64,000 nucleotides of DNA from contig JAKJEI010000001.1 in the NCBI GenBank assembly GCA_022705505.1, positions 8,157 through 72,156 on the forward strand, in the 5' to 3' direction. The stretch comes from Patescibacteria group bacterium (GTDB lineage: Bacteria; Patescibacteriota; Minisyncoccia; Phycocordibacterales; XYD1-FULL-46-19). The translations under genes and the position numbers were made by a program. The notes under the pieces were generated by a model. The model searched no databases. It was not told where the DNA came from and saw nothing but the letters and a program-made list of their open reading frames with translations. This document shows positions 16,341 through 47,217 of the stretch, one piece after another; positions within the stretch are counted from its first letter, which is position 1, and every line of letters begins with the position of its first letter.

Positions 16341-16378
16341 GAAAGGCGGGTGAAAACAGTTGTTTTCACCCGCCTTTC
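16341..16378. terminator. 18-bp-stem hairpin (gaaaggcgggtgaaaaca / tgttttcacccgcctttc)
   Basis: Perfect inverted repeat 18 nt after the stop of the 15409..16323 gene. It is flanked by A-run and T-rich sequence. Confidence 0.45.
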
Positions 16379-21929: not shown

Positions 21930-22056
21930 AAAAATGTCTAAAAGTAACCGCCGGGTCAACACGTTGACCCGGCGGTTACTTTTATTTTTGAAATGGGTTA
22001 TAATAAAGAGAATTATTAGCCTTAAGAAATTTTTTAACAATTAATATCAGTATTTT

Positions 22057-34789: not shown

Positions 34790-35770
34790 ATGTCTTCATC
34801 CTTGATTAGGGTCGGAGTTATGCGTGGCGGTCTTGGGTCTGAATATGAAGTCTCGCTCAAAACGGGCGCGACCGTTTTGGAGTATTTGCCGCGCGAAAAA
34901 TATCAACCGCGAGATATTTTGATTACCAAAGATGGCCAATGGCATATGGATGGCTTTGGGATAGAACCGGCTCGTTTGCGAAACAGTCTGGACGTCGTCT
35001 TTAATGCCTTGCATGGCGAGTTCGGCGAAGATGGGCAAGTTCAAACCTTGCTTGATAACACAATGCTGCCCTATACCGGTTCTGGCCGTTTGGCTTCGGC
35101 GCTAGGAATGAACAAGGTGGCCGCCAAAGAAATTATCTCGCGCGCCGGGCTGAAGGTTCCGCGCGGTGTCCACCTCAAGTTTAAACCGGAGACTAAGGCC
35201 GAAGCGGTTGCTTATGACGTTTTTTTAAAAATTTCACCGCCTTGGATTGTTAAGCCGGTCAGTCGCGGTTCCTCCGTTGGCGTCTTTTTGGCAAAGACCT
35301 TTGATGACTTGGTTGTTGCGGTTTCGGAATGTTTCAAAATCAGTGAAGTCATCTTGGTGGAAGAATACATCAGAGGGCGCGAAGCGACCTGCGGTGTGGT
35401 GGACGATTTTCGCGGACATAAAACTTACCCGCTCTTGCCGATTGAAATCGCGCCGCCGGCTGGCAAAAAGTTTTTTGATTATGAGGCCAAGTATTCCGGT
35501 CAGTCAACTGAGATTTGCCCCAGTCAGTTTTCAATTGAAGAAAAAAGAGAACTGGGCGAGTTAGCGGCTGCTGTTCATAAACTGCTTGGTCTTAAGCATT
35601 ACTCACGCACTGACTTCATCGTTTCGCCACGCGGAATCTATATTTTGGAAGTCAATTCTTTGCCCGGTTTGACAGCCGAATCTTTGGTTCCCAAATCCTT
35701 GGCGGCTCTTGGCGTCCCCCTGCCGCATTTTTTGGACCATGTTGTTTCCCTCGCTTTAGGCAGAAAATAA
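34790..35770 (+). CDS. ddl: D-alanine--D-alanine ligase
   Basis: IRVGVMRGGLGSEYEVSLKTG... followed by an ATP-grasp pattern. Confidence 0.9.
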   Translation: MSSSLIRVGVMRGGLGSEYEVSLKTGATVLEYLPREKYQPRDILITKDGQWHMDGFGIEPARLRNSLDVVFNALHGEFGEDGQVQTLLDNTMLPYTGSGRLASALGMNKVAAKEIISRAGLKVPRGVHLKFKPETKAEAVAYDVFLKISPPWIVKPVSRGSSVGVFLAKTFDDLVVAVSECFKISEVILVEEYIRGREATCGVVDDFRGHKTYPLLPIEIAPPAGKKFFDYEAKYSGQSTEICPSQFSIEEKRELGELAAAVHKLLGLKHYSRTDFIVSPRGIYILEVNSLPGLTAESLVPKSLAALGVPLPHFLDHVVSLALGRK

Positions 35771-35825
35771 ATTCAGGCGGGCCAATCGCGCTCAAGGAGG
35801 CCCTTGGTTAGTTAATTTAACATAG

Positions 35826-35857
35826 AGCTTGTTACGTAGCATGTTACGTAACAGCTT
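35826..35857. repeat. 32-bp near-palindrome with core GTTACGTA-RCATGY-TACGTAAC (copy 1 of 2)
   Basis: agcttgttacgtagcatgttacgtaacagctt. A second copy of the core, in reverse-complement form, is at 46817-46848. Confidence 0.5.
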
Positions 35858-35894
35858 CGCCCTCAAAAGGAGGTCTGACCTCCTTTTGAGGGCG
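35858..35894 (+). terminator. 16-17 bp perfect hairpin cgccctcaaaaggagg..cctccttttgagggcg followed by atttattt
   Basis: Lies downstream of the ddl stop and immediately 3' of tRNA-Ala on the other strand. Confidence 0.5.
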
Positions 35895-35901
35895 ATTTAT
35901 T

Positions 35902-35978
35902 TGGTGGACCCGACCGGGCTCGAACCGGTGACCTCCACATTGCAAATGTGGCGTTCTAGCCAACTGAACTACGGGCCC
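35902..35978 (-). tRNA. tRNA-Ala (anticodon UGC), CCA encoded
   Basis: The reverse complement GGGCCCGTAGTTCAGTTGGCTAGAACGCCACATTTGCAATGTGGAGGTCACCGGTTCGAGCCCGGTCGGGTCCACCA folds as a full cloverleaf and carries the G3:U70 alanine identity pair. Confidence 0.9.
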
Positions 35979-36065
35979 TGAATATTAAAATATACACAAG
36001 CGTATACTTTGGGTAAACAAAATTAATATAACACAAACTAGGACAGGCTGGAATACCTGTCAGCT

Positions 36066-36107
36066 AAAAAACCGACAACCTCCCACGGAAGGAGGTTGTC
36101 GGTTTTT
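36066..36107. terminator. bidirectional terminator: 17-bp stem aaaaaccgacaacctcc / ggaggttgtcggttttt
   Basis: Perfect inverted repeat flanked by A5 and T5 runs, 10 nt beyond the stop of the minus-strand small ORF. Confidence 0.5.
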
Positions 36108-36116
36108 AGGTTATTT

Positions 36117-36326
36117 CTATTCAAGCAAGTCTGTCTCCGAAGTGGTGGCGCTGGTCGTTCCGAAGATGTCCTCATTGTCAAAATCATCAAAGACATCGCC
36201 GCTTGTTGTCGTGTCCGGAACGACATCAATATCATTAGGTTCAGCGACATAATAATTGTAGATAATTATGCCCAAAACAACAATGATTATCAAAACAATG
36301 ATTGTTGTAACTATTTTTGAGTCCAT
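36117..36326 (-). CDS. small membrane protein with acidic C-terminal tail (hypothetical)
   Basis: 69 aa with an N-terminal TM helix (IVTTIIVLIIIVVLGIIIY) and a D/E-rich tail. A terminator directly follows. Confidence 0.4.
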   Translation of the reverse strand: MDSKIVTTIIVLIIIVVLGIIIYNYYVAEPNDIDVVPDTTTSGDVFDDFDNEDIFGTTSATTSETDLLE

Positions 36327-36611
36327 ATTTTACAAAATAAATTGCTGATAATTTTAAAAACGACTAAATTTATTGCTGTTTTAATTAATCATGAATTTTA
36401 TGAAGTTTCTATTAAAATCGGCTGAACTACTTTTATTAAAGCGCTCAGCCAGGAGTTTTTATTAAAAAGCTGGCAAACATATCTTGATTTGTTTTTTTTT
36501 GCGCGTAAAACTTTTTAACTCTTTTACAATTTATAAAAGATTTGTTATATTTACATTTGAAAATAGTCTAAAATTGGACTATGGTGTCGTGGGCAAGAGT
36601 TTTCTGGTCAA

Positions 36612-36684
36612 GGGCCATTAGCTCATTTGGTAGAGCGCTCCCATGGCATGGGAGAGGTGACCGGTTCGATTCCGGTATGGTCCA
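36612..36684 (+). tRNA. tRNA-Ala (anticodon GGC)
   Basis: GGGCCATTAGCTCATTTGGTAGAGCGCTCCCATGGCATGGGAGAGGTGACCGGTTCGATTCCGGTATGGTCCA folds as a perfect cloverleaf with G3:U70. Confidence 0.9.
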
Positions 36685-36685
36685 C

Positions 36686-36913
36686 ATGTTTAAAGAATTT
36701 TTTGTTAAAAAAATGTTGCAATCTAAGGGCGTGTCTAAAGAACAAATCGAGCCCTTGATGGCGATTGTCAAGAAAAATCCGGCTTTTTTTCAACAAATTG
36801 CCGGTGAAATTGAAGAAAAAGTCAAAAAAAATAAGGTTGACCATATGACGGCGACAATGGAAATCATCAATAATCACCGCGACGAATTGCAAAAACTGCT
36901 AACGGACAAATAA
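36686..36913 (+). CDS. small helical hypothetical protein (75 aa) starting 2 nt after the tRNA-Ala 3' end
   Basis: MFKEFFVKKMLQSKGVSKEQIEPLMAIVKKNPAFFQQIAGEIEEKV.... The track ORF at 36581 runs through the tRNA and is rejected in favour of this internal ATG. Confidence 0.4.
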   Translation: MFKEFFVKKMLQSKGVSKEQIEPLMAIVKKNPAFFQQIAGEIEEKVKKNKVDHMTATMEIINNHRDELQKLLTDK

Positions 36914-36918
36914 CAAAG

Positions 36919-37209
36919 ATGGCCTTGGTGTCCGACTTTAGAACAAAAGTTTTGGACGTTGTTTCGCAAATTAAAGTTGGCGAGACGCTTTCTTATGGTG
37001 AAGTGGCGCGGCGCGCCGGTTCGCCCAAGGCCGCGCGCGCCGTGGGCAACATATTGAATAAAAATTTTAATCCGCAAATTCCTTGTCATCGGGTCATTCG
37101 CGCTGACGGTCAGGTCGGCGGTTATAACCGCGGCGGCAAAGCCAAAATTCGTCGGCTCAAGCAAGAAGGCGCCAAGTTGGTTTTTGGCTTAACTAGTGCT
37201 AAAGTTTAA
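36919..37209 (+). CDS. ogt: methylated-DNA--protein-cysteine methyltransferase, C-terminal catalytic domain only
   Basis: IPCHRVIRADGQVGGY (PCHRV active-site motif). At 96 aa it has no N-terminal domain. Confidence 0.8.
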   Translation: MALVSDFRTKVLDVVSQIKVGETLSYGEVARRAGSPKAARAVGNILNKNFNPQIPCHRVIRADGQVGGYNRGGKAKIRRLKQEGAKLVFGLTSAKV

Positions 37210-37212
37210 GCT

Positions 37213-38313
37213 ATGAATATTTCTGTTGGTATTGTTGGTTTACCTAACGTGGGGAAGTCCACGCTTTTTAACGCTCTCACCAGAAAAGGCGTGCCGGCCG
37301 AAAATTATCCTTTTTGCACCATTGACCCATCGGTTGGGATCGTGCCGGTACCTGATGAGCGAGTCGGTTTGTTGGCGGATTTTTCTAAGTCCGCCAAACA
37401 AATTCCAGCGGTGATTGAGTTTGTGGATATTGCTGGCTTGGTCAAAGGCGCGTCGGCTGGTGAAGGTTTGGGCAATCAATTTTTGCAACATATCCGCGAA
37501 GTGGACGTCATCGCCGAAGTGGTACGCGTTTATGAAGACTCCAATATTGCTCACGTTTCCGGTCGGATTGACCCGATTGATGATATTGAAACGATCAACC
37601 TGGAACTGGTCTTGTCTGATTTGCAGACCGTCAGCAAACGAATGGCGAGCCTCGCGCGCGATGTCAAACGCGGCGACAAGGCCGCTGTTGCCGAAAATAT
37701 GATTTTGCTCAAGTTGGAAGAAATTCTTAAAGCCGGTCAAATGGTTTCCTCTCACCTTGCAATGCTCATGCATTCTCAAGAGCGCGAAAATGCCGCAAAT
37801 GTGTTAAAGAATCTCCATCTTTTGTCGGCAAAACCAATCTTGTATGTTTTGAATAAAAAGCATGGTGGCCAAATGATTGAGACGAAACCAACAGAAGATT
37901 TTATTACCAAACTTGGCGCTAAGTTTGTGGTGGTGGATGCCAAGATAGAAGGCGAGTTGTCCGAGCTGGAAATAGATGACCGCGCGGAATTTAAACAAGG
38001 CCTGGGGGTGGAGGATGACGGCGTTAACGATTTGATAAAAGCCAGTTATGAGCTTTTAGGTTTGGAAACGTATTTTACGACCGGTCCTGATGAAACGCGC
38101 GCTTGGACGATAAAAAAAGGCTCCACCGCGCCGGAGGCGGGTTTGGCGATCCATACTGATTTCAAAGAAAAGTTTATTCGCGCTGAAGTGGTGTTTTGGC
38201 AAGATTTGCTTGAAGCCGGTTCTTATGCTGCCGCGCGCGAGAAAGGTTTGGTCAGAACTGAAGGCAAAGAATATGTCGTCAAAGATGGGGATGTGATTGA
38301 ATTTAAAATCTAG
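37213..38313 (+). CDS. ychF: ribosome-binding ATPase YchF
   Basis: VGIVGLPNVGKSTLFNALT with a TGS/YchF C-terminus. Confidence 0.95.
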   Translation: MNISVGIVGLPNVGKSTLFNALTRKGVPAENYPFCTIDPSVGIVPVPDERVGLLADFSKSAKQIPAVIEFVDIAGLVKGASAGEGLGNQFLQHIREVDVIAEVVRVYEDSNIAHVSGRIDPIDDIETINLELVLSDLQTVSKRMASLARDVKRGDKAAVAENMILLKLEEILKAGQMVSSHLAMLMHSQERENAANVLKNLHLLSAKPILYVLNKKHGGQMIETKPTEDFITKLGAKFVVVDAKIEGELSELEIDDRAEFKQGLGVEDDGVNDLIKASYELLGLETYFTTGPDETRAWTIKKGSTAPEAGLAIHTDFKEKFIRAEVVFWQDLLEAGSYAAAREKGLVRTEGKEYVVKDGDVIEFKI

Positions 38314-38332
38314 CAATTAATTATAGAACAAT

Positions 38333-38471
38333 AAAAAAAACCGCAAGAAACGCTTGAGCAGGGCGTGCGGGGTTGTTCGCTTATCGCTACTTAATCCCAA
38401 TCTTGCGGTGGCCAATTTGTGACGGTCTTGCCTTCTCCTCGCGAGAGATTGGCTAGTCTCCTCCTGCGAGT
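38333..38471 (-). ncRNA. candidate small RNA (~140 nt) with consensus promoter and U-tract terminator
   Basis: On the minus strand: -35 TTGCAC (38506-38501), 17-nt spacer, -10 TAGAAT (38483-38478). The 3' end has CCGCAAGA...UCUUGCGG pairing followed by U8 (the plus-strand A-run at 38333-38340). No ORF of substance. RNA family not identified. Confidence 0.35.
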
Positions 38472-38542
38472 AACCAGATTCTAGCAGAGGGAAAACAAAC
38501 GTGCAATAATTGCCGCCCGGGAGTATAATAATTGATAATCTT

Positions 38543-39148
38543 ATGGTCTTGTCTTTATTTGTTTTAATTTTAATAATTATTGTCGTTTTATTAATTGTTT
38601 TTAATAATATGCAAAATAAAAACATTCTTAAATGGGCTTTGGTTATTGGCATTATCATCGTGCTTAACCTTTTCTTCCATTTTGCAACGCGGTTGGTTTA
38701 TAAAATTCCGGAGTATGAAGATTTTTGCCAATCAAAACAAGTAGAGATTCGCCCGGATACTGAGGAATCTTGCGTCGCCGAAGGTGGCGCTTGGATTACG
38801 CCGGCCAAAGAATATTATGAAGAAGCGCCGATGACTCCGCCGATCGGCGCCGAAAAAGCATATTGCGATCCCACTTACACTTGCCGCCAAGAGTTTGAAG
38901 ATGTCAGAGATGTCTATCAACGCAATGTCTTTGTTGTGATGGTTGTTCTTGGCCTCGTTTCTTTGATTCTTGGCTTTGCCCTGGCGGCCAATGAAGCTAT
39001 TTCGCTCGGTTTGTCTTATGGCGGTATTTTGTCGTTCATCATTGCCTCTATTCAATATTGGTCGGCCATGGATGATTATTTGCGGGTGATAATTCTGGCC
39101 TTGGCCTTGGCCATCTTGATTTACCTGGGATACCGGAAATTCAAATAA
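38543..39148 (+). CDS. integral membrane protein, hypothetical
   Basis: Hydrophobic N- and C-terminal helices around a Cys-containing soluble loop. The track ORF starts at a TTG at 38510; the ATG at 38543 is preferred. Confidence 0.5.
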   Translation: MVLSLFVLILIIIVVLLIVFNNMQNKNILKWALVIGIIIVLNLFFHFATRLVYKIPEYEDFCQSKQVEIRPDTEESCVAEGGAWITPAKEYYEEAPMTPPIGAEKAYCDPTYTCRQEFEDVRDVYQRNVFVVMVVLGLVSLILGFALAANEAISLGLSYGGILSFIIASIQYWSAMDDYLRVIILALALAILIYLGYRKFK

Positions 39149-39265
39149 TTCTCGCCAAAGGTTTGGTCCGCGAAAATCAATTGGCTCAGCCTAGGCTGAG
39201 CCAATTGATTTTCTCCTTTTTCGTGGTAAAATCAGCTCATTATCTCTTAAATTTTTTAGACATAA

Positions 39266-42200
39266 ATGCCCTCAAAAAAACCCGCTGCCAAATCTCAAGC
39301 TTCAAGTAAGTATGACCATAAAAAGATAGAACCGAAATGGCAAAAAGTCTGGCGTCAGTCAGATATTTACCGCGTCAAGGAAGACAAGAAAAAAGACAAG
39401 GCTTATGTTTTGGACATGTTTCCGTATCCATCAGGCGAGGGTTTGCATGTTGGTCACCCCAAAGGCTATATCGCGACCGATATCTATTCTCGTTACAAAC
39501 GGATGAAGGGCTTTAATGTTTTGCATCCCATGGGCTGGGACGCTTTTGGTTTGCCCGCCGAAAATTATGCCATAAAAAATAAGATTCACCCCGAGACCGC
39601 TGTCAAAAAAAACATCAAACGTTTTAAGGAACAGTTGGAAATTATCGGTTTTGATTATGATTGGTCTCGCGAGATAAACACCACTGACCCCAAATACTAT
39701 AAATGGACTCAATGGATTTTTTTGCAATTGTGGCAAAAGGGCTTGGCTTATCAATCCTATGAACCGATTAACTGGTGTCCGTCTTGCAAAACCGGTTTAG
39801 CTAATGAGGATTTGGAGGATGGTAAGTGTGAGCGTTGCGGTTCAGAGGTGGAAAAGAAGCCAATGCGTCAGTGGGTGCTCAAAATTACCGATTATGCCGA
39901 ACGTTTGTTAGAGGATTTGGAAGACTTGGCCTGGCCTGAATCAATCAAAGAGTCCCAACGCAACTGGATTGGCCGAAGTGAGGGCATAGAAATAGATTTT
40001 GAACTTAAAACCAAGAAGCTGAGATATGTTTTTTTGCACGGTTTTAAGAGCGGACCGAATCGTTGTTGGTTCCCATGGCTTAAACGTGAACTGGAAAAAC
40101 GCGGGCACGAGGTAGTGGTGCCGGCCCTGCCAAACCCTTTTTTGCCGGATGTCGTCAACCAGACGGAATTTGTGCTGGAAAATGTTTCTTTTGACGAAAA
40201 CACGGTTTTGGTTGGGCATAGTTTGGGGACAGTTGTCGGCTTGCGTGTTTTGGAACGTCTCAAGAAACCAATTAAAAAATTTGTGGCAGTTTCTGGTTTG
40301 GTGGAACCAAAGTTCAAAGACAAAGACCGCCCGGCTGCCGCTTTTTTGATAAATTGGGACTTTGATTTTGCCAAAATTAAAAAAAATGCCGGCGACGTTG
40401 TTATTTTGGAAGACCAGACTGACTATTTGATAAATCAAAATCAAGGAGAAAATCTGGAGGCCAAGCTGAATGGCCGACTAGTTCGCTTTGAAGCGAAAAG
40501 AACTCATACTTGCGGTACGGTGGAGCCAGTGGTGCTAGAAAATGTTTTGGATACGGTGAAAGTTTTTACGACGCGCGCCGATACGCTTTTTGGCGCCACT
40601 TACGTGGTCTTGGCGCCGGAGCATAATTTTGTTCAGAAAAATTTGTCAAAGTTTGACAACAAATCAGAAATCCAAAAGTATCAAAAACAAGCCACTAAAC
40701 AAAGCGAGATAGCCCGCATCGCGGAAACCAAAGAAAAAACCGGTGTTCAATTGAAAGGCGCGGTCGCGGTTAACCCGGCCAATGGCCGTGAAGTCCCTGT
40801 TTTTATCGCTGACTATGTTTTGCCGGATTACGGCACCGGCGCGGTGATGGCGGTACCGGCGCATGATGAGCGTGATTTCGCCTTTGCCAAGAAATATAAA
40901 CTGCCAATTATTCAGAGTATTGCCAAGAAGAACGCGCCAATCAAAAGTTACCTCATGGGCGCAAACCAGATTTCTGATGGTGAATTGGAAGAAGTTGGCG
41001 CCAAGATTTACGAAAAGAAGCCGGACGGCGACCGTCTCTTGGTTTTATCAGCAAAAAAGTTGCCAGCCTACGAAAAATTGATCAGCGAAAAAATGACCGC
41101 TGGCTATTGGAATGAATATGTGGGCAAGGAAATTGTTTTTCTTTTTAAGGATAAAAAAGATCGGGTGACCAAGATTGTTTTGACACCGGAAACTGCGGAG
41201 GAGGTTGATAAGTTGGCAAATGAATTTTCTGCAGACAAAAAAAGAAAATTTGTTTCGCCTTGGACCTGGCTGGCGGAAAATGATTGGTATAAAGATTTAA
41301 TTATCCATACTGAAGCGGGTGTTTTGGTTAATGCCGGTAAAAAATTCACCGGTCTTTCAAGCGAGAAAGCCAAGTTGGCGGTTTCGCGCTATGTGCGAGG
41401 CAAACAAGTTGTTAAATACAAACTTCGTGACTGGGTCTTTTCGCGTCAACGTTATTGGGGCGAGCCAATCCCGGTTGTTCATTGCGACAAATGCGGAGTC
41501 GTGCCGGTGCCGGAAGACAAGCTGCCGGTCAAGTTGCCGAAGGTCAAAAGTTATGCCCCAACCGACACGGGCGAATCACCTTTGGTCGATATTGAAAAAT
41601 GGGTCAAAACCAAATGTCCGGCTTGCAGCGGACCGGCTAAACGCGAAACCAACACAATGCCGCAATGGGCGGGTTCTTCTTGGTATTATTTGCGTTATCT
41701 GGACCCGAAGAATGAGACTGCTTTGGTTAGCCAAGACAAAGAAAAATATTGGCAAGAAGTTGATGTCTATGTCGGTGGAACCGAGCATGCCACTAGACAT
41801 TTGATCTATGCGCGTTTTTGGCACAAGTTTTTGTATGACCTCGGTGTGGTGAGCCGACCGGAACCTTTTGCCAAACTCAAGAACCAAGGTTTGATTTCCG
41901 GGAGTGACGGCCGCAAAATGTCTAAGCGTTGGGGAAACGTGGTTAACCCTGACGATGTCGTAAAATCTTACGGCGCCGATAGTTTGCGTGTCTATGAAAT
42001 GTTTATGGGCCCATTTGAAGCCGGCGCTTCTTGGCAAACTGAAAATATGATTGGCGCGCGTCGTTTTCTGGAAAAAGTTTGGCAGTTGTCGAAAAAAGTG
42101 GAATCTCAGAAAGGCGACAGCCTGCTGGTTGTTCAAGTCCACGAGACAATCAAAAAAGTTGGCAAGGATATCACGGACTTTGCCTTCAATACCGCTATTT

Positions 42201-42586
42201 CTGCCTTGATGATTTTGGTCAACGAGTTAGAAAAACAGCCGACAGTCAGTCGAACTGATTTTGAGAATTTACTTAAGCTTTTGGCGCCGTTTGCCCCGCA
42301 CTTGTCTGAAGAATTATGGTCACAGTTAGGGCACAAAACCTCTATTCATTTGGCGCCGTGGCCGACCTATGACGCTCAAAAGACCGTCAAGCAAGAGCTC
42401 AAAATTATGATACAAGTAAATAGCAAAATAAGAGACAAAATTGTTGTGCCAGCGAGCGCTAGTGAAGAAGAAATTCTCAAGCAGGCTCGGGCAAGCGCCG
42501 GCGCGAAGCGATGGCTTGAAGGGCAGACAATTAAAAAAGCTTTTTATGTGAAAGGCCGTCTAGTTAATTTTGTAACCAATAAGTAG
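39266..42586 (+). CDS. leuS: leucyl-tRNA synthetase with an inserted alpha/beta-hydrolase-like module
   Basis: HIGH-region (PYPSGEGLHVGHPKGY), CP1 editing motifs (TTRADTLFGATY, PAHDERDFAFAKKY), and KMSKR near RKMSKRWGN. At 1106 aa it is about 250 aa longer than usual. Confidence 0.95.
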   Translation: MPSKKPAAKSQASSKYDHKKIEPKWQKVWRQSDIYRVKEDKKKDKAYVLDMFPYPSGEGLHVGHPKGYIATDIYSRYKRMKGFNVLHPMGWDAFGLPAENYAIKNKIHPETAVKKNIKRFKEQLEIIGFDYDWSREINTTDPKYYKWTQWIFLQLWQKGLAYQSYEPINWCPSCKTGLANEDLEDGKCERCGSEVEKKPMRQWVLKITDYAERLLEDLEDLAWPESIKESQRNWIGRSEGIEIDFELKTKKLRYVFLHGFKSGPNRCWFPWLKRELEKRGHEVVVPALPNPFLPDVVNQTEFVLENVSFDENTVLVGHSLGTVVGLRVLERLKKPIKKFVAVSGLVEPKFKDKDRPAAAFLINWDFDFAKIKKNAGDVVILEDQTDYLINQNQGENLEAKLNGRLVRFEAKRTHTCGTVEPVVLENVLDTVKVFTTRADTLFGATYVVLAPEHNFVQKNLSKFDNKSEIQKYQKQATKQSEIARIAETKEKTGVQLKGAVAVNPANGREVPVFIADYVLPDYGTGAVMAVPAHDERDFAFAKKYKLPIIQSIAKKNAPIKSYLMGANQISDGELEEVGAKIYEKKPDGDRLLVLSAKKLPAYEKLISEKMTAGYWNEYVGKEIVFLFKDKKDRVTKIVLTPETAEEVDKLANEFSADKKRKFVSPWTWLAENDWYKDLIIHTEAGVLVNAGKKFTGLSSEKAKLAVSRYVRGKQVVKYKLRDWVFSRQRYWGEPIPVVHCDKCGVVPVPEDKLPVKLPKVKSYAPTDTGESPLVDIEKWVKTKCPACSGPAKRETNTMPQWAGSSWYYLRYLDPKNETALVSQDKEKYWQEVDVYVGGTEHATRHLIYARFWHKFLYDLGVVSRPEPFAKLKNQGLISGSDGRKMSKRWGNVVNPDDVVKSYGADSLRVYEMFMGPFEAGASWQTENMIGARRFLEKVWQLSKKVESQKGDSLLVVQVHETIKKVGKDITDFAFNTAISALMILVNELEKQPTVSRTDFENLLKLLAPFAPHLSEELWSQLGHKTSIHLAPWPTYDAQKTVKQELKIMIQVNSKIRDKIVVPASASEEEILKQARASAGAKRWLEGQTIKKAFYVKGRLVNFVTNK

Positions 42587-42692
42587 CGTTTGACTTATAC
42601 TAAAATAAATGATACAACTAAAGACAGCAACTAACCGGTCAAAAGAAGGACCACTCGGTCGCTAAAAAATAAAAAATTATCAGTAAAAACTT

Positions 42693-43739
42693 ATGGCCAC
42701 TAAAACAACAAAAGGTTTTTCCATAAAACCAAAAGAGATTACCAAAAAGCTACTCAACGTTTTGCCGGAACGCAATCGCGATATTTTAACCAAGCGCTAT
42801 GGTTTGGACAAAAACAGCAAACGCCTAACCCTTGAGGCAATTGGCAGCGAATATGGAATTACGCGCGAGCGTGTTCGTCAGATTGAAAATTTTGGCCTGG
42901 GCATGACCAAAAAATCCAAGACCTATGAAAGCGCGACGGAGGCTTTTGAGCAAATCAAAGATTTGATGAATGAATACGGAAGCGTGGTTCACGAGCGGGA
43001 ATTTTTGGGGTCTTTGGCCAAAGACGAATTAACTCAGAATCACATCCATTTTTTGCTGGTTGTTTCTGATAATTTCACTAAAATCAAGGAAGACGAAGAA
43101 TTCCATCATCGCTGGACGGTCAATGAAGAAAAAGCCGCTAAGGTTCATCAGTCATTGCGCAGACTTTGCGCCGGATTTTCCGAAGATGATTTGATTCCCG
43201 AACCGGAGCTTATCACTAAATTTCTTAAAGAATTAAAAGATTTTTCCAACGAACCAAATTTGGAAGGCTTGGCTCCGAAGTGGCTCAAAATTTGCAAACT
43301 TTTGGCGCGTAACCCGCTTGGCGAATGGGGGCTCAACACCTCGCCAAACATCCGCATGCGCGGTATTCGCGACTATGCTTATTTGGTGTTGCGGCAAAAC
43401 AAGGCCCCTCTCCATTTTACCGAGGTGGCTCGAGAAATTGATAAAACCTTCAACAAAAAAGCGCACCCAGCTACTTGCCACAACGAGTTGATAAAAGATG
43501 GTCGCTTTGTTTTGGTTGGTCGCGGCCTTTATGCTTTGACTGAATGGGGTTATTCTCAGGGCACGGTTGTTGACGTCGTGATGAGGATCCTGAAAGAGGC
43601 CGGCGCTTTATCAAAAGACGAAATCATCAACCATGTTTTGAAAGAGCGTTTTGTCAAAGAAAACACGATTTTGGTCAACCTGCAAAATGCCAAGTATTTC
43701 AAGCGTGACGAAAACGGACGTTACTTCTTGGTTTCCTAA
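42693..43739 (+). CDS. DNA-binding protein with sigma-70 region-4-like HTH (N-terminal) and winged-helix-like C-terminus, hypothetical
   Basis: RNRDILTKRYGLD...LTLEAIGSEYGITRERVRQIE resembles sigma70 region 4. The C-terminal ~90 aa resemble a HARE-HTH / RNA polymerase delta-like fold. Confidence 0.45.
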   Translation: MATKTTKGFSIKPKEITKKLLNVLPERNRDILTKRYGLDKNSKRLTLEAIGSEYGITRERVRQIENFGLGMTKKSKTYESATEAFEQIKDLMNEYGSVVHEREFLGSLAKDELTQNHIHFLLVVSDNFTKIKEDEEFHHRWTVNEEKAAKVHQSLRRLCAGFSEDDLIPEPELITKFLKELKDFSNEPNLEGLAPKWLKICKLLARNPLGEWGLNTSPNIRMRGIRDYAYLVLRQNKAPLHFTEVAREIDKTFNKKAHPATCHNELIKDGRFVLVGRGLYALTEWGYSQGTVVDVVMRILKEAGALSKDEIINHVLKERFVKENTILVNLQNAKYFKRDENGRYFLVS

Positions 43740-43745
43740 AATCTT

Positions 43746-43796
43746 ATCCACAATCATAAAAACGCGGCCAAAGGCCGTGTTTTTATGATTGTGGAT
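43746..43796 (+). terminator. 24-bp-arm hairpin (atccacaatcataaaaacgcggcc-aaa-ggccgtgtttttatgattgtggat)
   Basis: Near-perfect long inverted repeat (one G-U position) starting 7 nt after the stop of the preceding gene. A T-rich stretch follows. Confidence 0.45.
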
Positions 43797-43850
43797 GAAA
43801 GGGTTTTTGCCCAGTGGTTTTTTTCTCAGTAATGTTTTATTATTTAGAGG

Positions 43851-45107
43851 ATGGTTTTTATTTTAAACCTGATAGGGAACTTTTTTAGCCAGACTTGGTA
43901 TTGGATTTCTTTGGCCCTGCCTTTTACGGTCTATTTTTTGCCGTTCGTTTTGGCCTATGCTCTTTGGGAGTCTTATTTGGCTTTTATTCGCGAACGATAC
44001 ATAAACAAGGAAGAACGTATTTTGCTGGAAGTCAAAATTCCGAAAGAGATTAGCAAATCGCCGGCCGCGATGGAGCTTCTCATGCATGTTTTTTACCAAA
44101 CTTATGAAGGCGAGCTGGTAGACCAATACATCAAGGGCACTGTTCGTTCTTGGTTTTCGTTGGAGTTAGCCTCTTTTGGCGGCGAAATCCATTTCTATTT
44201 CAATATTCCGAAGTTTTTCAAAGACTTGGTAGAAGCGCAAATTTATTCTCAGTATTCCGAAGTGGAAATTTTTGAAGTTGACGATTACACGCAACAAGTA
44301 AACTTTGGCCAACCGGATTCGCCGTGGGAAATTTTCGGCTGGGAGTGGAAATTTGCCAAAGCTGATATTTACCCAATCAAAACTTATTATGATTTTGGTT
44401 TGGAAAAAGATCCCAAAGAAGAATACAAAGTTGACCCGATGACGCCCCTTATGGAATTTTTGGGCTCTATCAGACAAGACGAACAAGTTTGGTTTCAGTT
44501 TTTGGTCATGGGCGGCAAAGATCGTTTCCCAATCAAAAATAAAAAAGCAAAATGGTATAATTTCTTTTCAAAGGTAGAAATGAAGGGTTGGAAAGATGCT
44601 TCTCAAGAGGAGTTACAAAAAATTCTAAAACGTGAAGAAAAAGGCGATGATATTGCTTCCTTTGTAAAGTTGACAATGTCGCCCGGCGAGCGCCTTTTGG
44701 CTGAATCAATAGAAAGACACTTGGCCAAACTTTGTTTTGACGTTGGCATTCGCGCCGTTTACGCTTCTAAAGAAGGCATCCGCCCGATTGTCAAAGTCGG
44801 CGTTGGCAACAGCATAAAACAATTCGGTTCGCCCGGCATGAATGGTTTTAAGGTGGCGGCTACCACGAGCTATAACCAACCGTGGGAAGATTACAAGGGG
44901 ATTAGAGCCAGACGTTTGAAAAAACTGATGTTTAAATATTTTCGTGAACGCGCCTATTTCTATCCGCCAGCCAGCAAAAAACCAATGGTGATGACGACTG
45001 AAGAATTGGCAACACTCTACCACTTCCCAGGCCAAGCAGTTACTACTCCATCGCTGTCGCGTATCCCGTCCAAACGAGGTGAACCGCCAGTTAACCTGCC
45101 ATTATAG
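43851..45107 (+). CDS. hypothetical protein with N-terminal TM helices
   Basis: 418 aa with no recognisable motifs. Confidence 0.5.
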   Translation: MVFILNLIGNFFSQTWYWISLALPFTVYFLPFVLAYALWESYLAFIRERYINKEERILLEVKIPKEISKSPAAMELLMHVFYQTYEGELVDQYIKGTVRSWFSLELASFGGEIHFYFNIPKFFKDLVEAQIYSQYSEVEIFEVDDYTQQVNFGQPDSPWEIFGWEWKFAKADIYPIKTYYDFGLEKDPKEEYKVDPMTPLMEFLGSIRQDEQVWFQFLVMGGKDRFPIKNKKAKWYNFFSKVEMKGWKDASQEELQKILKREEKGDDIASFVKLTMSPGERLLAESIERHLAKLCFDVGIRAVYASKEGIRPIVKVGVGNSIKQFGSPGMNGFKVAATTSYNQPWEDYKGIRARRLKKLMFKYFRERAYFYPPASKKPMVMTTEELATLYHFPGQAVTTPSLSRIPSKRGEPPVNLPL

Positions 45108-45109
45108 TT

Positions 45110-46114
45110 ATGATTGAAGATAACACTACGACTCAAAACCTCAAGCTAAGCGAGGATAAAAAACAAATTGTGGCAACTGTGGGACAATATGTTCTGACCG
45201 CCTTTATCCTGGTTTTTATTTTGTTTAACTTGACCTTCGTCTTTCCGCCCTATACCTTTCCGGACGAGGTTTATTTCCGCGTGGAAAGCGGCGAGACTGC
45301 CGGCGAGGTGGCCGAAAATTTATACCAACAAAGTTTGGTTCGTTCACCGAAAACTTTCAAAGCCCTGATTTTTCTTTTGGGCGGCCAAAAGAAAATCCAG
45401 GCGGGCAGTTATTATTTCGGCGAACCGATTTCTACCTTGGCGATTGCGATGCGTCTCACAAACCGCTTTTTGGGCCACGAGCCGTACCGGATTACTTTTT
45501 TTGAGGGCGCGTCGGCGGCGAAAATTGCCAAGGCCATCAGCCAAGAAGCGCCCGACTTTAACGAAGAATTGTTTGTGGAGTTGGGGACTCATTGGGAGGG
45601 CTATCTTTTTCCCGACACCTATTTCTTTTCCAAACTGGACGGTCCGGCCGATATGATTAAGGTAATGCGGGATAATTTTGATACTCGCATAAAGGAAGTA
45701 GAAGGCGATATCAAAGCGACCGGTAAGACGATGAATGAAATAATCACGATGGCCTCTATTATTGACCGTGAAGTTCGCACCGAAAAAGACCGCCATCTTG
45801 TTTCCGGCATACTTTGGAAAAGAATTGCCTCCGGTATGCCCCTGCAAGTGGATGCCACCTTTGAATATTATTTGGGCAAAACTACTTTTGACCTGACCAA
45901 GACCGACCTTAAGTCCGAATCGCCTTACAACACTTATGTCAACAAGGGTTTGCCTCCAACTCCAATCGGCAATCCGGGTTGGGACGCGATTGTCGCCGCC
46001 ATTTTTCCCGAAGAAAGCGATTATTGGTTTTATTTATCTGACCATGATGGGAATATCCACTACGCCAAAACGTTTGAGGAACACAAGGCTAATCGCGTTC
46101 GCTATGGGATATGA
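45110..46114 (+). CDS. mltG: endolytic murein transglycosylase MltG (YceG family)
   Basis: N-terminal TM segment and YceG motifs, including GLPPTPIGNPGWDAIVAA. Confidence 0.85.
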   Translation: MIEDNTTTQNLKLSEDKKQIVATVGQYVLTAFILVFILFNLTFVFPPYTFPDEVYFRVESGETAGEVAENLYQQSLVRSPKTFKALIFLLGGQKKIQAGSYYFGEPISTLAIAMRLTNRFLGHEPYRITFFEGASAAKIAKAISQEAPDFNEELFVELGTHWEGYLFPDTYFFSKLDGPADMIKVMRDNFDTRIKEVEGDIKATGKTMNEIITMASIIDREVRTEKDRHLVSGILWKRIASGMPLQVDATFEYYLGKTTFDLTKTDLKSESPYNTYVNKGLPPTPIGNPGWDAIVAAIFPEESDYWFYLSDHDGNIHYAKTFEEHKANRVRYGI

Positions 46115-46231
46115 GGAAGGTTATAAGTTTTAGCAAAAAGACAATTTTTTATTTTAATTTTTATAGCTTACATTCATTACCATTCGTTTCATTCGTATGA
46201 ATTCGTATATTAGTGTCGTGCTTAATTTATT

Positions 46232-46786
46232 ATGGAAAAGAAACAAAAATTAGCTTTTATAGACCTTGAAACCACCGGCCTTGACCCGGAAAAGCACGAA
46301 ATTTTAGAAATTGGTGGAGTCGTTGTTTGGCACAATATTGATGATCGTGGAGTCAACTCTTTTCAAGAAATTGGCGAGTTTGAATACAAAGTCAAACCAA
46401 AACATCTTGAGACGGCCAGCCCTGAAGCCTTGCGGATAAACCATTACAATGAAGCGGATTGGCTTTTTGCCGGCGAACTAAATCAAACGTTAAAAGATTT
46501 GAGCAAGAAGGTAGAAGGGGCCGTGATGGTCGCGCACAATGTCGCGTTTGACTGGGGTTTTTTGAGTGCGGCCTGTTTTCGCGAAAATATTGATTTAAAA
46601 ATGGATTACCACAAACTAGACCTGCTTTCTATCGCCTTTGCCAAACTTTATAACAAGGATTGGACGCCCAAACTTAATCTTTGGGCCTTGGCCGAGCATT
46701 TTGGTCTTCAAAATAAAAAAGCTCACTCCGCCCTCGCCGACGCCCGCGTCGCTTACGAGATTTATCAGAAATTGATGACGGGGTAG
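46232..46786 (+). CDS. DnaQ-like 3'-5' exonuclease (DEDDh)
   Basis: LAFIDLETTGLDP...HNVAFDWGFL...HSALADARVAYEIY. Confidence 0.8.
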   Translation: MEKKQKLAFIDLETTGLDPEKHEILEIGGVVVWHNIDDRGVNSFQEIGEFEYKVKPKHLETASPEALRINHYNEADWLFAGELNQTLKDLSKKVEGAVMVAHNVAFDWGFLSAACFRENIDLKMDYHKLDLLSIAFAKLYNKDWTPKLNLWALAEHFGLQNKKAHSALADARVAYEIYQKLMTG

Positions 46787-46816
46787 AGTTTAAACTAGGA
46801 AGGACTTTAACTGTTT

Positions 46817-46878
46817 GGTTTGTTACGTAACATGCTACGTAACAAACCTGCCCAAAGGAGGTTGGACCTCTTTTTTGG
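46817..46878. repeat. second copy of the GTTACGTA-RCATGY-TACGTAAC palindrome plus adjacent AAAGGAGG-containing hairpin
   Basis: ggtttgttacgtaacatgctacgtaacaaacc (13-bp arms), then cccaaaggaggttggacctcttttttgg. Same two-hairpin architecture as 35826-35894. Confidence 0.45.
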
Positions 46879-46923
46879 CAGAAATGTGGCATAATAACAA
46901 AATTAAAAATTTAAATTAAAACT

Positions 46924-47217
46924 ATGAAAAATCCTTTTGTTAATGCTTTGCTCGCGGTTTTGTATATCGCCATAATTGCCTTATTTTTGTTTAACGCGCC
47001 AAAGATTGAAAGCACGCCTTCGGTCTTGGCGCCAATTGTGATGCTGTCCTTGCTCACTTTTTCGGTGGCCGTGATGGGCTTTTTGTTCTTTTTTCAACCT
47101 CTGCAGTTGTATTTTGAAGACAAGAAAAAAGAAGCGATAAAGTCCTTCTTAACTACCTTATTAACCTTTGGCCTTTTAACCTTAATCTTCGCCGGAATAT
47201 TGTTTTATATACAATAG
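46924..47217 (+). CDS. small membrane protein (3 TM), hypothetical
   Basis: 97 aa, hydrophobic. Confidence 0.45.
   Translation: MKNPFVNALLAVLYIAIIALFLFNAPKIESTPSVLAPIVMLSLLTFSVAVMGFLFFFQPLQLYFEDKKKEAIKSFLTTLLTFGLLTLIFAGILFYIQ

What the first reader, a model, noticed from the sequence alone, without database searches (positions are those of the whole stretch)
35826..35894. Repeated double-hairpin intergenic element (GTTACGTA-RCATGY-TACGTAAC palindrome plus AAAGGAGG hairpin), two copies
The same ~65-bp two-part architecture occurs downstream of ddl (35826-35894) and downstream of the DnaQ-like exonuclease (46817-46878). Each has a 32-bp near-palindrome whose 22-bp core gttacgtaRcatgYtacgtaac is identical in the two loci up to reverse complementation. 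An immediately following second hairpin has arms containing AAAGGAGG/CCTCCTTT. Each sits where a terminator is expected. The shared core suggests a family of REP/MITE-like palindromic elements or a conserved protein-binding site coupled to terminators.
Basis: seen in the sequence. Interest (0 to 1): 0.5.

Follow-up and report, generated by a model that had tools for sequence, protein, structure and literature searches.

The report
Patescibacteria-wide palindromic 12-bp box array
The two look-alike palindromes in this window are copies of a near-invariant 24-36 bp DNA motif, built from abutting 12-bp palindromic boxes, that occurs a few times per genome across many lineages of the ultra-small Patescibacteria (CPR), and that I could not find described in any library I could search; its function is unknown.

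Summary
The 22-bp core sits at 35831-35852 and 46822-46843 (0 expected by chance). Each copy is followed by a similar second hairpin found nowhere else in the window. The true unit is a 12-bp palindromic box, TGYTACGTARCA, present as two or three abutting copies. The window carries variants A-B and B-A'.

The same motif, usually TTGTTACGTAGCATGCTACGTAACAA, gave more than 117 hits (about 1 expected) in 60 species-representative genomes. All look like Patescibacteria, from Saccharibacteria to Moranbacteria. Density is roughly 3-5 per Mb. Sites are about 85% intergenic. The neighbouring genes share no family and include no transposase. I found no preference for origin or terminus, and only a weak link to terminators. 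There were no hits in viral contigs, plasmids, phages, Rfam or the searchable papers.

Inside genes the motif always reads LR(S/N)MLRN and is conserved at synonymous sites. Close relatives of the window genome lack both sites.

My best reading (about 40%) is a recognition site for an unidentified conserved DNA-binding protein, acting as a genomic landmark and not as an operator. Rivals are a REP-like self-spreading palindrome, an RNA hairpin, an uptake signal and a recombinase site.

The parts
35830..35853 (.). Copy 1 of the box array: box A TGTTACGTAGCA (35830-35841) abutting box B TGTTACGTAACA (35842-35853). The 22-bp core is 35831-35852.
   Evidence: Exact pattern match; box coordinates; sequence read directly.
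35826..35857 (.). Copy 1, extended near-palindrome. Locus-specific arms AGCT(T)...AGCT surround the core, with one bulge and one G-T/A-C position at the centre.
   Evidence: RNA fold -13.1 kcal/mol, z=-3.9; also seen in the fold of the whole region.
35857..35902 (.). Copy 1, second hairpin TCGCCCTCAAAAGGAGGT-ctg-ACCTCCTTTTGAGGGCGA followed by TTTATTT. This is a canonical, two-way intrinsic terminator between convergent ddl (+) and tRNA-Ala (-).
   Evidence: Best terminator-like hit of the region; -32.3 kcal/mol, z=-8.3; tRNA-Ala(TGC) at 35902-35978 on the minus strand.
46821..46844 (.). Copy 2 of the box array: box B TGTTACGTAACA (46821-46832) abutting box A' TGCTACGTAACA (46833-46844). The 22-bp core is 46822-46843. 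It is the same A-B variant as copy 1, in the opposite orientation.
46817..46848 (.). Copy 2, extended palindrome with 13-bp perfect arms GGTTTGTTACGTA / TACGTAACAAACC around ACATGC.
   Evidence: RNA fold -17.0 kcal/mol, z=-6.1; palindrome scan.
46848..46881 (.). Copy 2, second hairpin CTGCCCAAAGGAGGT-tgg-ACCTCTTTTTTGGCAG. It is related to copy 1's terminator hairpin but weaker and has no T-tail after the stem. Its 3' end overlaps a promoter-like TTGGCA-17-CAAAAT upstream of the 97-aa ORF.
   Evidence: Shared core found only at these two places; alignment; -17.6 kcal/mol; promoter-like hit at 46875-46903.
34790..35770 (+). ddl (D-Ala-D-Ala ligase). Its stop codon lies 60 nt upstream of copy 1.
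   Evidence: Pfam Dala_Dala_lig_N/C.
46232..46786 (+). RNase_T/DnaQ-like exonuclease gene. Its stop codon lies 35 nt upstream of copy 2.
   Evidence: Pfam RNase_T.
46924..47217 (+). 97-aa predicted membrane protein ORF, starting 80 nt downstream of copy 2's core. It matches no Pfam family.

Best explanation
The palindrome is a member of a Patescibacteria-wide DNA element made of two (sometimes three) directly abutting 12-bp palindromic boxes, TGYTACGTARCA, usually framed by T...A. I think it is a high-affinity recognition site on duplex DNA for a conserved, still unidentified sequence-specific protein. The protein would bind as one dimer per box, with neighbouring dimers 12 bp apart and so roughly on one face of the helix.

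The site would serve as a location-independent genomic landmark, in the manner of parS, matS, NBS or Ter sites. It would not be the operator of a regulon.

Sites are kept by selection at the DNA level wherever they are tolerated. That means mostly between genes, often beside or inside terminator hairpins, and inside genes only in the one reading frame that gives an amphipathic LR(S/N)MLRN helix. New sites arise at least partly by copying an existing site together with some flanking DNA. The two window copies are such a pair: they share a species-specific module of about 65 bp, made of the box array plus a terminator hairpin.

Shown: the motif's anatomy, distribution, conservation and turnover. 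Inferred: that a protein binds it, that it binds duplex DNA, and what the binding does.
For: 1. Non-random and taxon-wide. About 1 is expected from 596 Gb (my arithmetic). Labels span Saccharibacteria, Moran-, Falkow-, Kaiser-, Campbellbacteria and Paceibacterota. MAGs labelled otherwise carry proteins 47-83% identical to those of CPR-labelled MAGs.

2. Anatomy fits cooperative binding of dimers. The element has 2 or 3 abutting palindromic boxes, so the putative RNA loop differs between forms (CAUG versus ACGU). The flanks are T(98%)T(78%)...A(95%)A(76%).

3. Constraint at the DNA level. In prmC homologues found by protein search alone, the peptide LLRSML(R/S) is encoded by exactly the box sequence in 3 of 3 cases, while neighbouring codons differ. 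The same position is occupied in prmC, miaA and a Mur ligase in genomes whose proteins are only about 50% identical.

4. Symmetry is preserved. The orthologous site in L079 and L089 (proteins 77-83% identical) differs by a symmetric double change, GCATGC to ACATGT, while the flanks have diverged.

5. The variant type is genome-specific: 82 same-type pairs within assemblies, against 45.8+-6 after permutation. This is expected if sites track one binding specificity per genome.

6. Not an operator. 259 flanking proteins fall into 232 clusters. No Pfam family occurs in more than 3 of 70 genes whose 5' end faces a site, or of 102 whose 3' end does.

7. Not carried by known mobile DNA: 0 hits in 2.9 M viral contigs, 72,556 plasmids and 50,697 phage records.
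Against: - No candidate binding protein was found, and no gene recurs next to the sites.
- Positions turn over. None of five syntenic relatives of the window genome (Ddl 78-84%, LeuS 67-76% identical) has the motif anywhere in 6-23 kb. The orthologous ddl/tRNA-Ala junction in L132 is 17 nt, against 131 nt here.
- Among sites not selected by my search pattern, decayed copies (5 with 3-4 mismatches) are at least as common as perfect ones (3).
- Many prmC homologues carry decayed or expanded versions.
- A locus-specific extension of the palindrome is enriched: at least 3 bp in 11% of sites against 2.7% in the null. Two genomes show copies that share an adjacent hairpin. Both features suit a hairpin-based or self-copying element better than a plain duplex binding site.
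- Sites show no preference for the origin or terminus, so the closest analogues (parS, matS, dif) do not fit in detail.
- All primary sites were found through an exact pattern, so the motif's apparent invariance is partly a result of how they were collected.
Confidence: 0.4

Rival explanations
1. A non-autonomous, self-propagating mini-palindrome (REP-, MITE- or RPE-like selfish DNA). An enzyme supplied in trans, or hairpin-mediated copying, would spread it. Copies would survive where they do least harm: between genes, in terminator loops, and in one tolerated reading frame.
For: - Dispersed, non-syntenic copies, absent from close relatives.
- About 85% of sites are intergenic, against about 15% non-coding DNA. 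Sites are spread over co-directional, convergent and divergent gaps roughly in proportion to intergenic bases.
- In some loci the 22-bp core sits exactly at the dyad of a terminator hairpin, so that removing it leaves a ...TTAA... loop (L090, L105, L055).
- The window pair and three Falkowbacteria copies share extra flanking hairpins, so copies arise by duplication of DNA.
- Decayed copies exist.
- The number of 12-bp units varies from 2 to 6.
Against: - The sequence is identical across class-level lineages, with no linked transposase.
- No Y1/RAYT-like ORF occurs in about 0.9 Mb of site-bearing loci or in the window.
- The window's IS30-like elements have unrelated inverted repeats.
- There is no target-site duplication; the flanks are inverted TT/AA.
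- Copy number is only about 3-5 per Mb.
- prmC linkers that carry two boxes are no longer than those without (20-21 aa), so there is no sign of an insertion.
- Synonymous-site conservation in deeply diverged prmC argues for selection and against neutral selfish DNA.
- The motif is absent from viral, plasmid and phage collections.
Confidence: 0.25
2. An RNA-level element. When transcribed, the palindrome forms a stable hairpin in 3' UTRs or between cistrons. The hairpin would protect mRNA 3' ends, help termination, or be cut by a double-strand-specific RNase.
For: - Predicted hairpins are stable: -12.7 kcal/mol for two boxes and -23.7 for three.
- In co-directional gaps the site lies nearer the upstream stop codon than the downstream start in 39 of 58 cases (p=0.012; Wilcoxon p=7e-4).
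- Palindrome extension is enriched.
- There is a modest excess of adjacent terminators (17% against 9.4%).
- The symmetric double substitution keeps pairing.
- In A-B sites, G-U and not A-C falls on the transcribed strand in 11 of 16 cases (not significant).
Against: - The sequence itself is conserved and the stems do not covary.
- Two- and three-box forms would have different loops.
- Many sites lie directly after a terminator's T-run, where little transcription is expected (L045, L054, L063, L079 and others).
- The 5' UU / 3' AA flanks are the wrong way round for an intrinsic terminator.
- No Rfam family matches, even at E up to 5.
- The window's copy 2 presents the A-C mismatch, not G-U, to the exonuclease transcript.
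Confidence: 0.12
3. A self-recognition tag for DNA uptake or recombination, comparable to the uptake sequences (DUS/USS) of Neisseria and Haemophilus. This is a special case of a protein-binding site. It would mark CPR DNA for the competence machinery that these bacteria carry.
For: - Taxon-restricted and nearly invariant.
- Occurs in terminator hairpins, and in coding DNA only in a tolerated frame, without lengthening the protein.
- The window encodes DprA.
- Natural competence of Saccharibacteria is reported (PMC10633639, abstract seen).
- Several sites border accessory or defence genes and variable regions.
Against: - Density is about 100-fold lower than known uptake sequences, which occur about once per kb (my knowledge). 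Here there are 2 in 64 kb, and about 3 of 117 8-kb blocks hold a second site.
- The motif is 24-36 bp, against 9-12 bp for known uptake sequences.
- Single boxes are not over-represented.
- No paper in the library links uptake sequences with CPR.
Confidence: 0.08
4. A core site for a tyrosine (Xer-like) recombinase. It would read as two 10-bp arms around a 6-bp spacer (TTGTTACGTA-GCATGC-TACGTAACAA) and be used to exchange gene modules, as with the pdif modules of Acinetobacter plasmids or elements that integrate at dif.
For: - The commonest variant has 10-6-10 geometry.
- A type I restriction-modification island in L137 is bracketed exactly by two sites.
- Both window sites lie in gaps whose gene content differs between relatives.
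Against: - Three-box and direct-repeat forms do not fit a single core site.
- The spacer is palindromic, so it gives no polarity.
- Sites show no terminus signature: 2 of 68 against 3.6% of controls.
- Tyrosine recombinase genes are not enriched nearby: 2 in 117 loci.
- The 11 kb between the window's sites is mostly core genes that are syntenic in relatives.
Confidence: 0.07

Closest known systems
REP (repetitive extragenic palindromic) elements with their RAYT transposases
   Same: A short palindrome of 20-40 nt. Mostly extragenic, often just after stop codons and near terminators. Able to form mRNA hairpins. Dispersed copies whose flanks are unrelated.
   Different: REPs occur tens to hundreds of times per genome, are specific to a species or genus, are imperfect palindromes, and come with a RAYT gene flanked by REPs. 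Here there are only a few copies per genome, the same sequence across class-level lineages, perfect loop-less palindromes built from 12-bp boxes, no Y1/RAYT ORF in the loci, and position-conserved copies inside genes.
parS (ParB centromere site), and the related landmark sites NBS (Noc), matS (MatP) and SBS (SlmA)
   Same: A short palindrome kept nearly invariant across very distant lineages. One to some tens of copies per genome. Tolerated inside genes while conserved at the DNA level. Not tied to the function of neighbouring genes. The single box TGTT-ACGT-AACA resembles parS TGTT(TC)ACGT(GA)AACA with 2 bp removed from each half (my comparison from memory).
   Different: The sequence is not parS, and canonical parS is absent from the window and from all loci fetched by then. 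There is no enrichment near dnaA or parB or near strand-switch points. The boxes come as abutting tandems. Sites are strongly intergenic. No ParB-like partner was identified.
DNA uptake sequences (Neisseria DUS, Pasteurellaceae USS)
   Same: Taxon-restricted and nearly invariant. Found as palindromes in terminators, and in coding DNA in tolerated frames without lengthening the protein. The host group is naturally competent.
   Different: Density is about two orders of magnitude lower, the motif is far longer, and single units are not over-represented.
dif / pdif sites (Xer recombination) and the modules they flank
   Same: A palindromic site of about 26-28 bp that can be read as arm-spacer-arm. 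Conserved over wide taxonomic ranges. Sometimes brackets accessory gene modules (L137).
   Different: Several copies per chromosome with no terminus signature, a palindromic spacer, three-box forms, and no evidence of recombination.
Rickettsia palindromic elements (RPE) and other in-frame palindromic repeats
   Same: A palindromic repeat found both between genes and in frame inside conserved genes, where it encodes a tolerated helical peptide.
   Different: RPEs are 100-150 bp, genus-specific, and add residues. Here the element is 24-36 bp, shared across the group, and the prmC linker is not lengthened.

Membership tests
REP / RAYT system | Short extragenic palindrome | tested here: met
   About 85 of 122 sites are intergenic by crude ORF calls, against about 15% non-coding DNA. 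The palindromes fold at -12.7 to -23.7 kcal/mol.
REP / RAYT system | High copy number, with a sequence specific to a species or genus | tested here: not met
   2 copies in 64 kb. Only 3 of 117 8-kb blocks hold a second site. The same core occurs in 60 assemblies spanning Saccharibacteria to Moranbacteria.
REP / RAYT system | A cognate Y1 (RAYT) transposase gene, typically flanked by REPs | tested here: not met
No transposase family appears among the flanking genes.
MITE | Terminal inverted repeats around internal sequence, with a target-site duplication | tested here: not met
   The flanks are inverted (TT...AA), not direct. The element consists only of abutting boxes.
MITE | Ends matching an autonomous IS in the same genome | tested here: not met
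   The inverted repeats of the window's IS30-like element (TTCAACAAGTAATTGCAACACTT) are unrelated to the boxes.
parS / ParB centromere | The 16-bp palindrome TGTTNCACGTGNAACA | tested here: not met
   The motif differs from it. Canonical parS is absent from the window (up to 2 mismatches) and from the 130 loci fetched by then.
parS / ParB centromere | Sites clustered around oriC or parAB | tested here: not met
dif / Xer | A single site at the replication terminus, where strand bias switches | tested here: not met
   Several sites per genome. A terminus-like switch in gene orientation occurs at 2 of 68 sites, against 3.6% of control positions. GC skew is positive across the whole window.
dif / Xer | Two recombinase-binding arms around a 6-8 bp spacer | tested here: inconclusive
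   The two-box A-A' form can be read as 10-6-10, but the three-box and direct-repeat forms cannot.
DNA uptake sequence (DUS/USS) | Genome-wide over-representation, about one per kb | tested here: not met
   2 per 64 kb in the window. Single boxes are not over-represented.
DNA uptake sequence (DUS/USS) | Preferential uptake of DNA carrying the motif | not testable with these tools
   Needs transformation or uptake assays.
Transcription-factor operator (regulon) | Sites upstream of a recurring, functionally coherent set of genes, usually including the regulator's own gene | tested here: not met
   259 flanking proteins fall into 232 clusters. No Pfam family occurs in more than 3 of the 70 genes whose 5' end faces a site. 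Window site 1 lies between convergent genes.
Intrinsic (Rho-independent) terminator (second hairpin only) | A G+C-rich stem-loop followed directly by a T-tract | tested here: inconclusive
   Met for copy 1: top hit of the scan, -32.3 kcal/mol, TTTATTT tail. Not clearly met for copy 2: the T-run lies within the 3' arm and no tail follows.
Any curated RNA family (Rfam 15) | A match to a covariance model | tested here: not met
   Only tRNAs reach the gathering score in the window. At E up to 5 over 35700-47000 only weak hits appear, far below their gathering scores.
RPE-like in-frame palindromic insertion | The element adds residues relative to homologues that lack it | tested here: not met
   prmC linkers with two boxes are 20-21 aa, the same as most linkers without boxes.

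The most novel reading that the evidence does not exclude
The box array is the DNA half of an undescribed system shared across Patescibacteria. In this reading a conserved protein reads a few invariant 'self' landmarks per chromosome. Possible roles are tagging DNA for uptake or recombination, exchanging gene modules, or organising or insulating the tiny chromosome. It would be a CPR-specific counterpart of parS/ParB or DUS/ComP that nobody has noticed, because these organisms are known almost only from metagenomes.
Probability: 0.2. Interest if true: 0.85.

Novelty: new variant of a known kind. Interest (0 to 1): 0.62.

Why it matters
Almost nothing is known about cis-acting DNA signals in Patescibacteria, a very large and mostly uncultivated part of bacterial diversity. 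A 24-36 bp motif kept nearly letter-perfect across lineages as distant as Saccharibacteria and Moranbacteria implies a conserved factor that recognises it, most likely a protein. It is held even at synonymous codon positions and is not tied to any gene family.

That makes a concrete question testable. Saccharibacteria can now be grown and genetically manipulated (PMC10633639), so a pull-down with a 26-bp duplex could identify the partner, and deleting sites could show what they do.

The motif is also a practical marker of CPR DNA in metagenomes. For the window itself, the result explains the two look-alike intergenic elements. It also warns against annotating them as ordinary REPs or as operators.

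Tried and rejected
Hypotheses tested and set aside:

- Operator or regulon. I clustered 259 flanking proteins and ran Pfam on 172 of them. No recurring family appeared.
- LexA box. No SOS-type neighbours recur, and LexA-like genes are only occasionally in the same 8-kb block. The Patescibacteria LexA paper (doi 10.1111/1462-2920.13826) is not held.
- parS. Canonical parS is absent, and there is no dnaA or parB enrichment.
- dif. No terminus signature.
- Ends of the window's IS30-like elements. Their inverted repeats are unrelated.
- RAYT or Y1 transposase nearby: none. Tyrosine recombinase nearby: 2 in 117 loci, as expected by chance.
- Small GIY-YIG genes: a few are adjacent, which is not convincing.
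- oriT. The CPR type IV secretion study reports relaxases in few genomes (10.1101/2025.01.22.634366).
- Phage or plasmid origin: 0 hits.
- Rfam: none.
- Literature string searches for the motif found only unrelated primer or oligonucleotide hits. Searches combining CPR with uptake sequence or palindromic motif found nothing relevant.
- A 'home' locus with long iteron-like arrays. Only 5 stretches with at least 4 boxes exist in the metagenome collection, with at most 6 boxes. The two I annotated (L137, L138) lie beside ordinary genes.
- Another motif 'dialect' in relatives that lack the canonical motif. I found only unrelated terminator palindromes.
- Paralogy of the small ORFs next to the two window copies: none.

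Caveats on methods:

- My ORF calls are crude: longest ORFs, picked greedily.
- All primary sites were collected through an exact pattern.
Full report
**1. Check of the observation**

The window contains exactly two matches to GTTACGTARCATGYTACGTAAC, at 35831-35852 and 46822-46843. No further match appears with up to 3 mismatches, and none occurred in 100 shuffles. A regex search with up to 6 mismatches found nothing else.

Both sites are embedded in longer, locus-specific palindromes: AGCT(T).../...AGCT at 35826-35857 and GGTTT.../...AAACC at 46817-46848.

Each is followed within 5-6 nt by a second hairpin whose core, AAAGGAGGTnnGACCTCyTTT, occurs only at these two places in the window (0.06 expected). 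The two second hairpins align at about 80% identity. The sequence upstream of the palindromes does not align.

Copy 1's second hairpin is a textbook two-way terminator (-32.3 kcal/mol, TTTATTT tail) between convergent ddl and tRNA-Ala. Copy 2's is weaker (-17.6 kcal/mol) and lacks a T-tail after the stem. Copy 2 lies between a DnaQ-like exonuclease gene and a 97-aa membrane-protein ORF.

So the description is confirmed, with small corrections.

**2. What the repeated unit is**

About one match is expected by chance (4^20 against 1.2e12 positions; my arithmetic).

Reading the 131 pattern matches, which merge into 120 sites in those loci (122 with the window's two), shows that the element is a tandem of 12-bp palindromic boxes, TGYTACGTARCA, with no spacer. 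Three box forms occur:
- A = TGTTACGTAGCA
- B = TGTTACGTAACA
- A' = TGCTACGTAACA

Counts by site type were A-A' 66, A-B 25, B-B 14, A-B-A' 13 and A-A-A' 4.

The window's copies are A-B and B-A', the same asymmetric variant in opposite orientations.

The flanks are T(98%)T(78%)...A(95%)A(76%), so the commonest form is the 26-bp perfect palindrome TTGTTACGTAGCATGCTACGTAACAA.

Arrays of four or more boxes are very rare. Only 5 stretches exist in the whole metagenome collection, with at most six boxes, and these are direct repeats of one asymmetric box.

**3. Who has it**

The hits come from 60 assemblies labelled Saccharibacteria, Moraniibacteriota/Moranbacteria, Falkow-, Kaiser- and Campbellbacteria, Paceibacterota, Parcubacteria or 'Patescibacteria group'.

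About a quarter of the loci come from MAGs labelled Gammaproteobacteria, Bdellovibrionales or Planctomycetia. Proteins in those loci are 47-83% identical to proteins in CPR-labelled loci, and their G+C content is similar.

The window genome itself is a Paceibacterota-type organism, judged from its gene content and from the names attached to its LeuS and Ddl homologues.

The motif is absent from 2.9 million viral contigs, from PLSDB plasmids and from GenBank phages. It matches no Rfam family. Its sequence appears in no relevant paper of the searchable library.

**4. Where the sites lie**

By crude ORF calls, about 85% of sites are intergenic, although only about 15% of the DNA is.

Across co-directional, convergent and divergent gaps the sites fall roughly in proportion to the intergenic bases available: 56/16/7 observed against 56/11/11 expected, p=0.15.

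Within co-directional gaps a site tends to lie nearer the upstream stop codon than the downstream start: 39 of 58 cases, p=0.012.

A strict terminator-like hairpin lies within 70 nt of 17% of sites, against 9.4% of control gaps (p=0.048). In many loci the terminator's T-run runs straight into the motif.

In 11% of sites the palindrome continues for at least 3 locus-specific base pairs, against 2.7% in the null. In the clearest cases the 22-bp core sits exactly at the dyad of an A-run/stem/T-run terminator (L090, L105, L055).

Only 3 of 117 8-kb blocks hold a second site. This implies about 3-5 sites per Mb, and the most seen in one (fragmented) assembly was 7.

**5. What the sites are not**

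The neighbouring genes share nothing. 259 flanking proteins fall into 232 clusters. Pfam families among the 70 genes whose 5' end faces a site, and among the 102 whose 3' end does, are ordinary housekeeping families, each seen at most 3 times (aminoacyl-tRNA synthetases, EF-Tu, FtsX, RecR and so on). No transposase is among them. This excludes a conventional regulon and a linked mobility gene.

Three further tests were negative:
- dnaA (1 locus) and parB (2 loci) are no commoner near sites than chance predicts. Canonical parS is absent.
- Terminus-like switches of gene orientation occur at 2 of 68 sites, against 3.6% of control positions.
- Y1 transposases are absent, and tyrosine recombinases (2 loci) are not enriched.

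**6. Evidence for constraint on the DNA itself**

All 16 sites inside long ORFs use the single frame that reads LR(S/N)MLRN. Of the other two frames, one contains a stop codon and the other would read CYV(A/T)CYV.

The site occupies the same position in prmC (three genomes), miaA (three) and a Mur ligase (two), in proteins only about 50% identical.

Among 120 prmC homologues found by protein search, 9 carry the exact peptide in the linker between PRPETE and DxGTGSG. About 35 carry decayed or expanded versions with a 4-residue period. Linkers with two boxes are no longer than linkers without (20-21 aa).

I fetched the DNA of three homologues chosen only by their protein sequence. In all three the peptide is encoded by exactly the box sequence, while adjacent codons differ. 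Of about 15,000 possible encodings, the motif is the one used.

An orthologous intergenic site in two genomes with 77-83% identical neighbouring proteins differs by a symmetric double substitution, GCATGC to ACATGT, while the flanks have diverged.

The variant type is also significantly genome-specific: 82 same-type pairs against 45.8+-6 after permutation.

**7. Evidence for turnover and copying**

Five syntenic relatives of the window genome (LeuS 67-76% or Ddl 78-84% identical) have no motif anywhere in 6-23 kb.

In L132, ddl is followed after 17 nt by the tRNA-Ala gene (identical over the stretch read), whereas the window has 131 nt holding the motif and the terminator. Both window sites lie in gaps whose gene content differs between relatives (ddl to ychF, and exonuclease to mnmA).

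Flanks of different copies are generally unrelated, even within one genome. The window pair is an exception, since the two copies share the second hairpin. Three copies in a Falkowbacteria MAG share a different hairpin. At least some new copies therefore arise by duplicating an existing copy together with adjacent DNA.

Among sites not selected by my pattern, 5 decayed copies (3-4 mismatches, 0.07 expected by chance) stand against 3 perfect ones.

One metagenome contig has a type I restriction-modification island bracketed exactly by two sites. Another locus has Schlafen-type helicase genes at its sites. These cases are suggestive but anecdotal.

**8. Interpretation**

The evidence has two sides:
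- Near-invariance across class-level lineages, a box structure in two- and three-box forms, conservation at synonymous sites and maintained symmetry point to a conserved sequence-specific reader.
- Low copy number, neighbours with nothing in common and placement wherever the motif is tolerated point away from gene regulation.

I therefore favour a duplex-DNA recognition site for an unidentified CPR protein that serves as a genomic landmark (confidence about 0.4). The binding, the duplex form and the role are all inferred.

The alternatives are:
- A REP-like self-copying palindrome (0.25). It explains the turnover, the copies at terminator dyads and the duplicated modules. It does not explain the cross-lineage identity without a mobility gene, or the long-term conservation inside genes.
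- An RNA hairpin role (0.12). It fits the bias toward gene 3' ends and the extended stems. It does not fit sequence invariance, the different loops of the two forms, or sites placed after terminators.
- An uptake tag (0.08) and a Xer-type module-exchange site (0.07). Each fits some facts but fails on density and on geometry or terminus tests respectively.

Within the window, the second hairpin of copy 1 is simply the ddl/tRNA-Ala terminator. Copy 2's second hairpin is a decayed relative of it.

**9. Novelty**

The element resembles several known kinds (REP, parS-type landmarks, uptake sequences, dif-type sites) but fails a defining test of each. I found no description of it in Rfam or in the papers I could search. 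I rate it a new variant of a known kind, namely a dispersed, conserved palindromic recognition motif.

Interest is moderately high, because the motif implies an unknown conserved partner in a poorly understood part of bacterial diversity and is directly testable.

Noticed in passing
window 11278-13372: Two IS30-like transposase genes (HTH_38 + rve) lie back to back, at 11318-12322 (+) and 12392-13351 (-). The first is framed by 23-nt inverted repeats at 11278-11300 and 12301-12323. Its exact protein is listed in 59 blocks of the assembly collection, and the one place shown (L128) is a different genomic context, so it looks like an active insertion sequence.
   Followed up: partly
window 39266-42586 (leuS): The leucyl-tRNA synthetase is 1106 aa and carries alpha/beta-hydrolase-like Pfam hits (weak or faint in the window protein). 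Nearly all Paceibacteria homologues listed share such hits, and many also have a NUDIX domain hit. This looks like a lineage-typical fusion or insertion.
   Followed up: no
window 35771-37212, compared with L129, L130, L131, L132, L133: The gap between ddl and ychF is a hot spot of gene-content variation. The window has tRNA-Ala (-), a 69-aa ORF, tRNA-Ala (+) and ogt. Relatives instead carry an AsnC-type regulator plus an RND efflux pump, a MarR regulator, or small GIY-YIG genes with a large serine recombinase (L132; also the contig of P0019, which adds a Prim-Pol gene).
   Followed up: partly
prmC homologues P0121-P0240 (linker between PRPETE and DxGTGSG): Besides the LR(S/N)M-type repeats, a second recurring linker peptide (...SHQSSVINII / NTQYSILNII...) appears in many Moranbacteria-type PrmC proteins. 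It may reflect another DNA-level repeat in the same hypervariable linker.
   Followed up: no
L050 6752-6789 and L015 1460-1483: Directly upstream of the canonical boxes lie further repeats, apparently with a 12-nt period, of a diverged type (CGTACTTACGnn). In L050 they lie inside a 401-aa ORF, where they read VST(C/S) repeats. They may be decayed or alternative boxes.
   Followed up: no
L137 430-447, 8159-8176 and 11474-11515: A type I restriction-modification island (hsdR, an ATPase, a fused hsdM-hsdS) is bracketed exactly by two box arrays, and a third array of four boxes lies at the contig end. One of the arrays is a variant, TTGCTACGTAGCAAGCTACGTAGCAA.
   Followed up: partly
window 21939-21984, 39172-39213, 16341-16378, 61039-61076: Long perfect palindromes of 38-46 bp with 0-4 nt between the arms lie at or near ORF ends and look like two-way terminators. 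Relatives have similar loop-less palindromes with unrelated sequences (for example a 44-bp one in L131). Loop-less perfect palindromes seem to be a general style of intergenic hairpin in these genomes.
   Followed up: no
window 35866-35886 and 46854-46874: The arms of the second hairpin are a Shine-Dalgarno sequence (AAAGGAGGT) and its complement (ACCTCCTTT). The complement resembles the 3' end of 16S rRNA (comparison from memory). A third terminator, at 36067-36107, also contains GGAGGTTG/CAACCTCC.
   Followed up: no
L006, L007, L008 (same species as the window): Three independent assemblies of this species end 186 bp after ddl, inside the tRNA-Ala gene just beyond the module. This points to a repeat or strain variation that breaks assembly at this point.
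   Followed up: no
L034 7195-7834: Two box arrays lie 573 bp apart, each preceded by 50 nt that are 96% identical. This is a local tandem duplication of a segment that includes the site.
   Followed up: no
window 1826-2698: A dprA gene (DNA-processing protein A, used in natural transformation) is present, consistent with the competence reported for this group.
   Followed up: no
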